From Escherichia coli (GTDB lineage: Bacteria > Pseudomonadota > Gammaproteobacteria > Enterobacterales > Enterobacteriaceae): a DNA stretch of 64,000 bases. The stretch lies in NCBI RefSeq assembly GCF_024223415.1, contig NZ_CP100500.1; one strand, given 5' to 3'. Of this stretch, positions 43,301-46,300 are shown one piece after another. Position numbers: made by a program. The stretch's first letter is position 1, and each line of letters opens with the position of its first letter.

Positions 43301-46300
43301 CTCTGCTGCCGCGTGCTTTCAGCCGTTTTAGCCAGACAATGATGTGGATCGACACGGTTAACGGTTTGATTATGGTGGACTGCGCCAGTGCCAAAAAAGC
43401 GGAAGATACGCTGGCACTGCTGCGTAAAAGCCTGGGGTCGTTACCGGTTGTACCATTGAGCATAGAAAACCCGATTGAACTGACGCTGACCGAATGGGTA
43501 CGTTCCGGTAGTGCGGCACAGGGCTTCCAGCTGCTTGATGAAGCCGAGCTGAAATCGTTGCTGGAAGATGGCGGAGTGATCCGCGCGAAGAAACAAGATC
43601 TGACCAGCGAAGAGATCACCAATCACATTGAAGCCGGAAAAGTGGTGACTAAACTGGCGCTCGACTGGCAGCAGCGCATTCAGTTTGTGATGTGCGACGA
43701 TGGTTCGCTCAAGCGTCTGAAGTTCTGCGACGAGCTGCGCGATCAAAACGAAGATATCGACCGTGAAGATTTCGCCCAGCGTTTTGATGCCGATTTCATC
43801 CTGATGACTGGTGAACTGGCAGCGTTAATTCAAAACCTGATTGAAGGATTAGGTGGCGAAGCACAACGTTAATTGCTGATTTTCCTTTAATGCCGGATGC
43901 GACGCCTGCCGCGTCTTATCCGGCGTACAAAGCCACACCAGGCATATAATTATTCGCTACGGCGGGCAATAATTTTTAGCGCAGCAATATTATGCGTTTT
44001 ACGCCGTAACTGATCGAATCGTCTCATCCCTATTCGCCTGTCAGCAGCACGCAGAATATTCACTAACCCCCATTTATCGCTGGTAAATTGTTTTGTTAAC
44101 AACTCCGCTTTTGGGGTGTCAATATATTCACGCAATAAATCAGAAATTGAACAAATATCCGTCAGGTAAGGATACCAGCAAGTTTCACCGTGAAAATTAC
44201 GCACTCCACCGTTACCTGCAATAAAGTCTTTCGGGTAATCCCAGATCACGTTTTTATCCAACGTGATCCAATAACGCGGTAAATCGGTGCTTCCACCATT
44301 TTGGCTGCGCATGGGATAACGGGTACAGTGAATTTGCAGGTTGATCGTTGGCGTCAGTAAGTCATAGATCTCCCGCTGTAACTTGCTCCAGGGGCGTTGT
44401 GTCATTGTTTTTCCTCAAGCCGGTGACGCGCTTCATTGCGAATTTTCCGCGTTGCCCCGGTTTTCACTAAATCCCGTAACTGCGAAAGATCGGGTTGATC
44501 GACAAATAAAAGTAATGATGGATCCTCTTTTAGCCACACCGTTTTCACATCGGCAGCCAGCTGTGGATTATTAATAGCCAGCGACCGATCCTGAGACTCA
44601 GTCAATGTCGTTAACAACGACGCCGGGGTATGTGCGTTGCGTAATGCCGTTTGGCGCAAATGATCATTGCGACTTTGCAGCAATGCACGCCACCATTCAT
44701 CATCTGATTTATCTTTTATCGTCGCCAGTTCCGCAAAAATATCGCTGTCCTCACTGTTCCAGCGGTGTAATCCTCTTTCACTTTGCCTACGGGTGCTATT
44801 TTTCATACTGACAACAGCCAGCGCCCAGTCAGAGTTGAAGCGATACTGTTGATCGAGTTTGTTGATAATTCCGGAAGGTAATTCTTTATTATCAAATAAT
44901 TGGTTACGCATTCGATAGCGGTATTCAGCGGGTAAATCAACCAGTAAATCAATGGCATTATTTAACATCTCTTCGTCAACAACACCATTATCAATCAGCG
45001 CCAGCTGTACTTCGTAGGCTTGCTCTTGATCTTCTTGCCGTTTGCTCATCATTAAATTTAATGTGCGTTGCCATAACTGTTTCTTATATTCCAGCGGCAA
45101 TAATTTATCGCGTGCCAGCTCATCCCAGACGGTGGGAACATCATGCTGAGTCAATAGATAACTAATCACGTCCTTCGATGTCAGATAACGCGCACCTTCG
45201 CGCAAATTGTGCACATCTTCTTTTGCCAGAGACAGTTGACGCATCTCCGGCAACGCTATCAATAACGCCTTTACGATATTTTTATTTTCTTTATTATCCA
45301 GATACATTTGTTCTGCGATACGTTCAATATCCTCTGTACGCAGGGTTGCTGACAGTTGGGTAATTTTTAATTCAGTAAGCGTCCGGGCTAATGCTTCACG
45401 AACTTTCAGTGATCTATCTTTACTCAACATCACGGCTTGTTGTGCGGTTAAATCTGCTCCGGTAATTCTTTCACGTAACTCCGGGTCTTCGTTATTTATC
45501 AACTCATCGGCCACTGCAGTCGGAACCAGCCAGGCGTAATCGTAATGGCTGAGTAATGTCTTGCGTACACTGAGAAAGGGGCTATGACTTAACGACGCAA
45601 CAATATCTGGAGAAAGATTATCCTGTCTGGCCTGCTCCAGCTGTACGCTCTCGACGGGTACAGACATTAATTTTTTATTCACATCGGCGGAAATATTACT
45701 GTTTTTAACCAGCCCTCTGGCAATAGCCTCATCTTTAATTAATTCATCGGTAAGCAAATGCATCTGTTGAGCGGGCCAGGACTGCGCCATCGATTCACGC
45801 GTCTGATCATCGGGGTGCTGTAACAGTTGCAGCATAACGGCGGGTGATAAACTCTCTTTATGAGTCAAAAAACGTGCCACCAGTGGATCTTGATGCTTTA
45901 TTTTATTCGCTGGGAAATTATCGAGTTTCCCCGTTTCAATCCATTTTAATTTCTCATTAATTTCAGGAGCGGCTTTATCTCGAAAAAGCGGTAAACCCTG
46001 AACGATGTTGTCTGCGACGCTATCATAGTCAGGATACGCATTGGAAATGTTATCGGTTTCGATTTCAGTGTGATCATAAAGATCGGCAGTCACCAGTGAA
46101 TAGGCTTTTTGAATATTCTCATCCCAGTTATATCCTTCACCACTTCCATCTTCATTGATATAAAATTCAGCTTTAATGACTTCAAATTGCGTTGCTTTAT
46201 CGGAAACAATAATGCCTCGCGCACTAATTCCCTTCATCACTTCAAAGTTATGATCATTGTAATCAGCATAAACTAAACCTTTCGCTGTCATCTGTCCTTT

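What the first reader, a model, noticed from the sequence alone, without database searches (positions are those of the whole stretch)
43950..44405. 151-aa partner ORF coupled to the large gene through an ATGA stop/start overlap
The stop TGA of the large gene and the start ATG of the 151-aa ORF share bases at 44402-44405, and a GAGG ribosome-binding site sits 7 nt upstream inside the large gene's 3' end. That is the classic signature of obligate co-expression. The small protein lacks hydrophobic segments and is rich in aromatic and charged residues (RYWITLDKNVIWDYPKDF...HGETCWYPYL), so it is likely cytoplasmic while its partner is exported. Such a compartment mismatch fits chaperone/effector, immunity or regulatory partner relationships.
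Basis: partly seen in the sequence, partly recalled or inferred. Interest (0 to 1): 0.6.

Follow-up and report, generated by a model that had tools for sequence, protein, structure and literature searches.

The report
Catalogued SF0329 gene, not obligate partner
The 151-aa ORF is a real, strongly conserved E. coli gene of the uncharacterised SF0329 family; it is co-transcribed with the large exported repeat protein upstream, but it occurs and stays under selection without that protein in many bacteria, so it is not that protein's dedicated partner.

Summary
The 151-aa ORF at 43950-44405 (-) starts in an ATGA overlap with the upstream gene, and a GAGG sits 7 nt upstream.

What it is:
- The window is the E. 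coli rdgC-ppnP locus.
- The ORF is already catalogued as an 'SF0329 family protein' (Pfam PF25753, NCBIfam NF049912).
- The large gene is a 'DUF2773 domain-containing protein': signal peptide, bactofilin-like beta-helix, then a leucine-rich-repeat-variant/HEAT-type solenoid.
- E. coli K-12's ykiA pseudogene and its 27-aa YkiD protein are deletion remnants of this pair.

The gene is real: dN/dS is 0.04-0.08, and homologues are 45-67% identical across at least 8 phyla.

The 'obligate partner' reading fails:
- 78 of 80 species loci carrying SF0329 have no DUF2773 gene.
- Within Escherichia, each gene has been deleted independently while the other stayed intact.
- The ATGA junction is replaced by 2-89-nt spacers in orthologous loci.

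In about a third of non-redundant loci, SF0329 sits in same-strand arrays of small genes. Those sampled include known immunity families (Imm15/42/51, SUKH). My best guess, by inference only, is an autonomous cytoplasmic orphan-immunity-type protein. It has no structural match in the PDB. Function is unproven and interest is modest.

The parts
43950..44405 (-). SF0329-family CDS, 151 aa, stop TAA at 43950-43952. Cytoplasmic and basic (pI 9.6).
   Evidence: ORF. Pfam PF25753 E = 1.7e-21. NCBIfam NF049912 93 bits, cut-off 60. RefSeq annotation of identical DNA as 'SF0329 family protein'. dN/dS 0.04-0.08. AlphaFold2 model pLDDT 87.
44402..44405 (-). ATGA stop/start overlap between the two cistrons.
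   Evidence: Read. Retained in K-12-like genomes and in Escherichia sp. E4930. Replaced by 2-, 66- and 89-nt spacers in loci L092, L007 and L094.
44413..44416 (-). GAGG Shine-Dalgarno-like motif, 7 nt upstream of the ATG, inside the end of the large gene.
   Evidence: Read. The K-12 remnant YkiD, which uses this start, was detected as a protein.
44402..46681 (-). Large CDS, 759 aa from the ATG at 46681 (the open frame reaches a TTG at 46690). Annotated 'DUF2773 domain-containing protein'. Architecture: signal peptide, beta-helix, alpha-solenoid.
   Evidence: ORF. RefSeq start. AlphaFold2 model pLDDT 85.6. 1LRV leucine-rich repeat variant, E = 1.1e-5. AFDB50 matches named 'DUF2773 domain-containing bactofilin', HEAT and leucine-rich-repeat-variant proteins.
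46616..46681 (-). Predicted Sec signal peptide of the large protein (residues 1-22, cleavage after ACA).
   Evidence: Kyte-Doolittle maximum 2.09. pLDDT below 50 for residues 1-22. Hydrophobic N-termini in most homologues, absent from one L007 paralogue. No signal-peptide predictor was available.
46154..46480 (-). Bactofilin-like beta-helix domain of the large protein (model residues 68-176).
   Evidence: Secondary structure of the model. AFDB50 names 'bactofilin' and 'polymer-forming cytoskeletal protein'.
44405..44647 (-). DUF2773 (PF10971) C-terminal region of the large protein. It is helical and continues the solenoid.
   Evidence: Pfam E = 5.1e-40, residues 682-762. Helices with pLDDT around 90.
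46762..46789 (-). Sigma-70-like promoter upstream of the large gene, probably the operon promoter.
   Evidence: Consensus scan: CTGAAA-16-CATAAT, 9 of 12 matches. The interval 46683-47150 is 99.4% identical to the K-12-type locus. In K-12 the ykiA promoter is activated by BglJ-RcsB (PMC3950696).
46796..46818 (-). Terminator-like hairpin after ppnP. It marks the start of a separate transcription unit.
43892..43924 (.). REP-type hairpin between the convergent SF0329 and rdgC genes.
   Evidence: Inverted repeat I2, 14-nt arms. Sub-threshold Rfam naRNA4 match, E = 0.047.

Best explanation
The ORF is the E. coli member of the catalogued but uncharacterised SF0329 family. It is the second cistron of a two-gene, low-GC operon between ppnP and rdgC.

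Shown:
- Its start is translationally coupled to the stop of an exported bactofilin/leucine-rich-repeat-variant protein (DUF2773).
- The operon's promoter region is 99.4% identical to the K-12-type locus, whose ykiA promoter is BglJ-RcsB-activated in K-12.
- The family is sporadically distributed across at least 8 phyla and is strongly constrained.

Inferred, about 0.8: the coupling is a local packaging feature, and SF0329 works autonomously in the cytoplasm.

Inferred from context only, about 0.4: SF0329 is an orphan-immunity-type protein that protects the cytoplasm by binding, or undoing the action of, a widespread incoming interbacterial toxin. In about a third of non-redundant loci it is one unit in tandem arrays of small same-strand genes. 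The arrays sampled contain recognised immunity families, which matches heterogeneous polyimmunity loci.

In Escherichia the locus is decaying. K-12's ykiA and YkiD are what is left of the pair.
For: Identity and reality:
- Family matches and annotation.
- dN/dS 0.04-0.08, including against E. albertii and strain MOD1-EC7003, which lack the large gene.

Operon and coupling:
- Junction read.
- No promoter-like site on the gene's strand between the two genes.
- YkiD protein detected in K-12.
- Promoter region 99.4% identical to the K-12-type locus, whose ykiA promoter is BglJ-RcsB-activated.
- GC is 42.5-44.5% against 50.4% for the window.

Autonomy:
- 80 species loci, of which only one shows any DUF2773 similarity, a 93-aa remnant.
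- Standalone contexts in Leminorella, Paenibacillus, Bradymonadia and an xseA-guaBA locus.
- Independent reciprocal deletions within Escherichia.
- Full-length SF0329 in 920 of 5426 complete E. coli genomes, against 443 for the large gene.
- The junction is not conserved.

Immunity-type context:
- 18 of 53 dereplicated loci place SF0329 in runs of at least 4 small same-strand genes.
- Pfam on 48 array genes from ten array-like loci found Imm51, Imm42, Imm15, SUKH_6, SMI1_KNR4 and SUKH_5. It also found DUF1963, DUF4240, DUF4274, DUF5071, Macro and LRR.
- DUF4240 (3 members) and SUKH_6 appear among the immediate neighbours.
- This fits the definition of heterogeneous polyimmunity loci in PMC3482391.
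- Other neighbours include type I restriction-modification-like genes (identified by eye from N-terminal sequences), TerB and BrxC/BrxD-type genes, and a DEAD helicase with DUF1998.
Against: - No cognate toxin was found next to any SF0329 gene.
- The E. coli context is not a polyimmunity array.
- 13 of 53 loci show SF0329 as an isolated gene among housekeeping genes.
- 45-67% identity across phyla is unusually high for an immunity protein, and many invariant polar residues (H26, C27, D56, D96, D110, D122, R123, R124) look more enzyme-like.
- The ten loci scanned for Imm families were chosen because they looked like arrays, which is a selection bias.
- SF0329 is not mentioned in the main text held of the Zhang et al. 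2012 catalogue.
- PADLOC found nothing.
Confidence: 0.5

Rival explanations
1. Dedicated partner of the large DUF2773 protein. This would be a cytoplasmic chaperone, an immunity protein against the large protein's C-terminal domain, or a regulator, with expression locked together through the ATGA overlap.
For: - The order 'large gene then SF0329', on the same strand, holds in four diverged versions of the ppnP-rdgC locus: the window, L092/L093, L094 and L007. Across these, SF0329 is 85-69% identical and the large protein 72-30%.
- An immunity gene immediately downstream of a protein's C-terminal domain is the classical polymorphic-toxin layout.
- The coupling is used in vivo.
Against: - 78 of 80 species loci lack DUF2773.
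- The large gene is intact where SF0329 is destroyed (E4930), which is incompatible with an essential immunity or chaperone role.
- SF0329 is intact and constrained where the large gene is deleted.
- DUF2773 homologues occur alone (L008; O157 paralogue).
- The C-terminal DUF2773 region is a conserved helical repeat and matches no toxin family.
- The junction varies.
- A pI of 9.6 is unlike the acidic secretion chaperones (the property of chaperones is from general knowledge).
Confidence: 0.1
2. A nucleic-acid- or nucleotide-directed enzyme or binding protein, for example an RNA-repair or NAD/ADP-ribose-linked accessory. Its island-like contexts would then be incidental.
For: - Very high cross-phylum conservation with invariant polar residues.
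- Basic pI and an Arg/Lys-rich C-terminal helical region.
- An in-frame fusion to RNA 2'-phosphotransferase KptA/Tpt1 in a Bacilli metagenome-assembled genome (241.7 bits, cut-off 239).
- A fusion to a DnaA-like P-loop ATPase.
- An ADP-ribosylglycohydrolase gene and Macro-domain genes among the genes scanned near SF0329.
Against: - Each fusion was seen once, and KptA occurs in no other locus.
- No conserved neighbour outside one Campylobacter clade.
- This rival partly overlaps the best explanation, because enzymatic immunity proteins exist.
Confidence: 0.25
3. A component or regulator of an anti-phage defence system.
For: Some loci lie beside defence-type genes:
- TerB and BrxC/BrxD-type genes with a DEAD helicase.
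- Type I restriction-modification-like genes, identified by eye from N-terminal sequences.
- A DEAD helicase, DUF1998 and an AAA ATPase on a Photobacterium plasmid.
Against: - No PADLOC match.
- No fixed neighbour.
- Absent from 50,697 phage records, and only 2 hits in 2.9 million viral contigs.
- Single small genes are rarely complete defence systems (general knowledge).
Confidence: 0.08
4. A spurious ORF created by chance downstream of the large gene.
For: None beyond its absence from most E. coli genomes.
Against: Family HMM matches, 542 or more homologous clusters, dN/dS 0.04-0.08, and a confident AlphaFold2 model.
Confidence: 0.01

Closest known systems
SF0329 protein family (Pfam PF25753; NCBIfam NF049912)
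   Same: Full-length match above the curated cut-off. All family motifs are present: WSKLQ, QIHC, PRYWITL, DYP, YPY, EYIDTP, WGL and AADRRIG. RefSeq annotates identical DNA this way.
   Different: Nothing differs. It is a typical member. The family has no assigned function, and I found no paper in the library mentioning it in this sense.
E. coli K-12 ykiA pseudogene and the small protein YkiD
   Same: Same locus and same ATGA junction. ykiA is the last 114 codons of the large gene. YkiD (MTQRPWSKLQR|KTHNIAALKIIARRSE) is the first 11 and last 16 residues of SF0329.
   Different: The window carries both genes intact. K-12 has a 1.9-kb deletion (window 44744-46682) and a deletion of about 0.36 kb (about 44012-44373). 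The second lies between imperfect AGTTAC(A/G)GCG repeats.
Immunity genes of heterogeneous polyimmunity loci in polymorphic toxin systems (Zhang et al. 2012, PMC3482391)
   Same: A small cytoplasmic protein with a patchy, horizontally transferred distribution. In many Bacteroidales, Clostridia and Deferribacteraceae loci it is one unit of tightly spaced same-strand arrays, and the arrays sampled include Imm15, Imm42, Imm51 and SUKH genes.
   Different: No cognate toxin is known. It is far more conserved than typical immunity families. It is not mentioned in the main text held of that catalogue. In E. coli it is not in such an array.
Toxin-immunity or effector-chaperone bicistrons with overlapping stop and start
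   Same: The small gene lies immediately downstream of a large exported protein, with a 4-nt overlap and an internal Shine-Dalgarno motif.
   Different: The large protein has no recognisable toxin domain. Each gene survives without the other. The overlap is not conserved.
DUF4304 (PF14137)
   Same: Two AFDB50 proteins named 'DUF4304 domain-containing' match the model. E-values are 7e-12 and 3e-10, TM-scores about 0.73-0.79, and identity 31-33%.
   Different: No Pfam DUF4304 match was reported for the E. coli protein (shown down to E = 10), nor for 46 divergent or fused family members (listed down to E = 0.1). The relationship is unconfirmed, and DUF4304 also has no known function.

Membership tests
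SF0329 family (PF25753 / NF049912) | Match to the family HMM above the curated threshold, over the full length. | tested here: met
   Pfam E = 1.7e-21, residues 6-140. NCBIfam 93 bits against a cut-off of 60, residues 6-148.
SF0329 family (PF25753 / NF049912) | Conserved motifs and invariant residues shared with distant members. | tested here: met
   19 invariant and 38 near-invariant columns across 50 sequences from several phyla, all present in the window protein.
Polymorphic toxin / immunity pair | The upstream protein ends in a recognisable, variable toxin domain. | tested here: not met
   The only Pfam hit is DUF2773, a conserved helical repeat region. PADLOC and NCBIfam give nothing significant.
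Polymorphic toxin / immunity pair | The immunity gene is immediately downstream on the same strand. | tested here: met
   ATGA overlap. The same gene order holds in L092, L094 and L007.
Polymorphic toxin / immunity pair | The toxin is never kept without its immunity gene. | tested here: not met
   Escherichia sp. E4930 has the large gene intact and SF0329 cut to 21 codons. The L008 homologue stands alone.
Polyimmunity-locus immunity protein | Lies in tandem, same-orientation, closely spaced arrays together with known immunity families. | tested here: inconclusive
   Met in a subset: 18 of 53 loci are array-like, and ten array-like loci sampled contain Imm15, Imm42, Imm51 and SUKH genes. Not met in the window itself, nor in 13 loci where SF0329 is isolated.
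Polyimmunity-locus immunity protein | Neutralises a specific toxin. | not testable with these tools
   No cognate toxin was identified. This needs competition or co-expression experiments.
Type II toxin-antitoxin module | Two small cytoplasmic proteins that always co-occur. | tested here: not met
   The partner is a 759-aa protein with a signal peptide, and co-occurrence fails.
Translationally coupled operon pair | Stop/start overlap with a Shine-Dalgarno motif inside the upstream gene, and the downstream start used in vivo. | tested here: met
   Sequence. YkiD protein made from the same junction in K-12. Dependence of translation on the upstream ribosome was not tested.
Secretion chaperone (T3SS class I type) | Small, acidic protein always encoded next to its substrate (criterion from general knowledge). 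| tested here: not met
   pI 9.63. Found without the large gene in 78 of 80 species loci.

The most novel reading that the evidence does not exclude
SF0329 is a new-fold, catalytic immunity or repair protein. It would reverse damage to RNA or nucleotides caused by a very widespread interbacterial toxin, possibly of the 2'-phosphate or ADP-ribose type. This would explain three things together: its enzyme-like cross-phylum conservation, its place in polyimmunity arrays, and its one-off fusion to RNA 2'-phosphotransferase KptA.
Probability: 0.1. Interest if true: 0.6.

Novelty: already known. Interest (0 to 1): 0.3.

Why it matters
- It corrects a tempting inference. An ATGA overlap plus a Shine-Dalgarno motif shows co-translation in this strain, not functional dependence.
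- It explains two K-12 oddities. The ykiA pseudogene and the experimentally detected 27-aa 'small protein' YkiD are deletion relics of an operon that is intact in about 8% of complete E. coli genomes, including O157:H7.
- It flags SF0329 as a testable candidate for a new immunity-type or enzymatic family. The family is uncharacterised, unusually conserved and horizontally mobile, and it has no structural match in the PDB.

Tried and rejected
- **PADLOC:** no hit for either protein.
- **PHROGs:** only weak partial hits, E = 0.0035 and 0.021.
- **PDB sequence profile for SF0329:** nothing; the best hit is E = 0.66.
- **Foldseek against AFDB50:** only the family itself plus two proteins labelled DUF4304. 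No Pfam DUF4304 match was reported for the query or for 46 divergent or fused members, so that link was not adopted.
- **Conserved neighbour across 80 loci:** the only recurrent neighbours come from one closely related Campylobacter clade, so this is synteny rather than functional linkage.
- **Recurrence of the KptA fusion:** none.
- **Other long family members:** one DnaA-like ATPase fusion, and the rest have no Pfam domain.
- **NCBIfam on 20 array neighbours:** uninformative.
- **Phage or plasmid carriage:** no phage records, 2 of 2.9 million viral contigs, and 1 real plasmid.
- **H-NS repression of this promoter:** I assumed it at first, but the paper did not test ykiA for H-NS, so I do not claim it.
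- **Literature:** no paper in the library mentions SF0329 in the bacterial sense, DUF2773, DUF4304 or DUF4240.
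Full report
**1. Observation**

On the minus strand the sequence reads ...CTT GAG GAA AAA CAA TGA, and ATG ACA CAA CGC... starts in the overlap.
- The large gene's stop codon TGA is at 44404-44402.
- The ATG of the 151-aa ORF is at 44405-44403, so the two genes share ATGA.
- GAGG is at 44416-44413, 7 nt upstream of the ATG.
- The ORF 43950-44405 contains the quoted motifs.
- It has no hydrophobic segment (maximum 19-residue Kyte-Doolittle mean 0.34), is 10.6% aromatic and has a pI of 9.63.

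The description is accurate. An ATGA junction is common in bacterial operons (general knowledge), so it carries little weight on its own.

**2. Identity**

The region is 100% identical to E. coli strain SCU-316 and 99.2% identical to O157:H7. It lies between rdgC and ppnP.
- RefSeq annotates the small gene as 'SF0329 family protein' and the large one as 'DUF2773 domain-containing protein'.
- The small protein matches Pfam PF25753 (E = 1.7e-21) and NCBIfam NF049912 (93 bits, cut-off 60).
- The large protein matches only DUF2773, at residues 682-762.

**3. The small gene is real and strongly constrained**

- 542 homologous 90%-identity clusters were found. Many are 55-67% identical and come from Prevotellaceae, Paenibacillus, Bradymonadia and Zoogloeaceae.
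- A profile search of 1.84 billion cluster representatives gave 446 hits at E <= 0.001.
- An alignment of 50 members has 19 invariant columns.
- dN/dS against orthologues is 0.04-0.08. For the large gene it is about 0.12.

**4. Operon and expression**

- A terminator-like hairpin follows ppnP at 46818-46796.
- A promoter-like site at 46789-46762 precedes the large gene.
- No promoter-like site on the gene's strand lies between the two genes.
- The interval 46683-47150 is 99.4% identical to the K-12-type locus. In K-12 the ykiA promoter is activated by BglJ-RcsB (PMC3950696). H-NS was not tested for ykiA.
- Both genes have low GC: 42.5% and 44.5%, against 50.4% for the window.
- K-12 retains the junction. 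Its 27-aa YkiD is listed among the small proteins detected in that study (PMC6001520, Table 1).

Co-transcription and use of the coupled start are therefore well supported.

**5. K-12 relics**

Mapping of K-12-type DNA onto the window shows two deletions.
- Window 44744-46682 removes 646 codons of the large gene and leaves ykiA.
- About 44012-44373 removes the middle of SF0329, leaving YkiD (MTQRPWSKLQR + KTHNIAALKIIARRSE).

Other states found:
- Strain MOD1-EC7003 has only the first deletion, and SF0329 is intact.
- E. albertii has an independent deletion (44534-46689), and SF0329 is intact.
- Escherichia sp. E4930 has the large gene intact and SF0329 reduced to 21 codons, still ATGA-coupled.
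- Among 5426 complete E. coli genomes, at least 80% of the SF0329 sequence is present in 920 and at least 80% of the large gene in 443.
- Some alleles are decaying. NCTC11129 has an early frameshift. O157:H7 has an extra A in an A-run that rewrites the last 8 residues.

**6. Is it a partner of the large gene?**

For:
- The gene order is kept in diverged versions of the same locus: L092/L093, L094, and L007 (which has two tandem DUF2773 paralogues).

Against:
- The junction in those loci is a 2-, 89- or 66-nt spacer, not an overlap.
- A scan of 100,044 species genomes found 93 carrying SF0329 (a lower bound, because the scan was pattern-limited). Of the 80 loci kept, only one has any DUF2773 similarity, and that is a remnant.
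- SF0329 stands alone in Leminorella, Paenibacillus, Bradymonadia and an xseA-guaBA locus.
- DUF2773 homologues stand alone in L008, and a paralogue exists in O157.
- The reciprocal losses in section 5 and the low dN/dS in lineages without the large gene point the same way.

A dedicated partnership is not supported.

**7. The large protein**

The AlphaFold2 model (pLDDT 85.6) shows three parts:
- a disordered N-terminal 22 residues, which is the hydrophobic signal peptide ending in ACA|TEW;
- a beta-helix at residues 68-176;
- an alpha-solenoid at residues 186-757.

A sequence profile hits the leucine-rich repeat variant structure 1LRV (E = 1.1e-5). AFDB50 matches are 'DUF2773 domain-containing bactofilin', HEAT and leucine-rich-repeat-variant proteins. 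No toxin domain was found.

**8. What SF0329 might do**

Structure:
- The AlphaFold2 model (pLDDT 87, pTM 0.82) has an N-terminal helix, a three-stranded sheet and four further helices.
- Foldseek finds only the family itself and two proteins labelled DUF4304. Pfam reports no DUF4304 match for the query or for 46 divergent or fused members.

Context:
- No neighbour is conserved outside one Campylobacter clade.
- 18 of 53 dereplicated loci place SF0329 in runs of at least 4 small same-strand genes.
- Pfam on 48 genes from ten array-like loci gave Imm51, Imm42, Imm15, SUKH_6, SMI1_KNR4 and SUKH_5. It also gave DUF1963, DUF4240, DUF4274, DUF5071, Macro and LRR.
- This matches the definition of heterogeneous polyimmunity loci (PMC3482391).
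- Other loci lie next to restriction-modification-like (identified by eye) or other defence-type genes.

Fusions:
- One is to RNA 2'-phosphotransferase KptA.
- One is to a DnaA-like ATPase.
- Neither recurs.

Mobility: the family is essentially absent from phages.

My best inference, at about 0.4, is an autonomous cytoplasmic orphan-immunity-type protein. An enzymatic or nucleic-acid-directed role is the main rival, and the two are not mutually exclusive.

**9. Verdict**

The feature is already catalogued, though its function is unknown. Interest is modest. It comes mainly from the K-12 relic story and from SF0329 being an unusually conserved candidate immunity or enzyme family with no structural match in the PDB.

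Noticed in passing
window 44012-44373 and 44744-46682, compared with L002: E. coli K-12's experimentally detected 27-aa 'small protein' YkiD is an in-frame deletion relic: the first 11 and last 16 residues of the 151-aa SF0329 protein. ykiA is the last 114 codons of the large gene. The SF0329 deletion lies between imperfect AGTTAC(A/G)GCG direct repeats.
   Followed up: yes
L001 3158-3607 (O157:H7), compared with window 43950-43990: The O157:H7 allele has one extra A in an A-run near the 3' end. This changes the last 8 residues (...AALKNYCPP*) and removes the family-invariant R149. Strain NCTC11129 has an early frameshift. The locus appears to be decaying in several lineages.
   Followed up: partly
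L079 2162-3199: In an uncultured Bacilli metagenome-assembled genome, SF0329 is fused in frame to a complete RNA 2'-phosphotransferase (KptA/Tpt1; NF002014, 241.7 bits). It was seen only once.
   Followed up: partly
protein P0246 (365 aa): An SF0329 domain is fused to a DnaA-like P-loop ATPase domain (Pfam Bac_DnaA, E = 8e-6). Several other long family members (P0171, P0229, P0255) carry C-terminal extensions with no Pfam match.
   Followed up: partly
L007 323-4929: A metagenomic enterobacterial contig carries two tandem DUF2773 paralogues (750 and 754 aa) upstream of SF0329. The one next to SF0329 lacks the hydrophobic N-terminus.
   Followed up: no
window 44402-46690: The large protein combines a Sec signal peptide, a bactofilin-like beta-helix and a solenoid of about 570 residues of the leucine-rich-repeat-variant/HEAT type. 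The mature part has no cysteines. E. coli O157:H7 has a 770-aa paralogue at 26% identity, named 'DUF2773 domain-containing bactofilin'; related E. coli proteins and fragments in AFDB50 are named 'protein involved in detoxification of methylglyoxal'.
   Followed up: partly
window 43892-43924: A REP-type hairpin (14-nt arms) lies between the convergent SF0329 and rdgC genes. It gives a sub-threshold Rfam naRNA4 match (E = 0.047).
   Followed up: partly
window 46681-46690: The mechanical ORF starts at a TTG (762 aa), but RefSeq and the homologue alignment favour the ATG at 46681 (759 aa, MNRINIL...).
   Followed up: yes
plasmid collection record CP061270.1, 672757-673197: A 1.2-Mb E. coli record filed as a 'plasmid' carries this chromosomal gene. 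It is probably a chromosome fragment labelled as a plasmid.
   Followed up: no
L033-L078 (about 25 uncultured Campylobacter genomes): SF0329 sits in a conserved block with 227-aa and 177-aa proteins of unknown function upstream and a methyltransferase downstream. This is the only recurrent neighbourhood found.
   Followed up: partly
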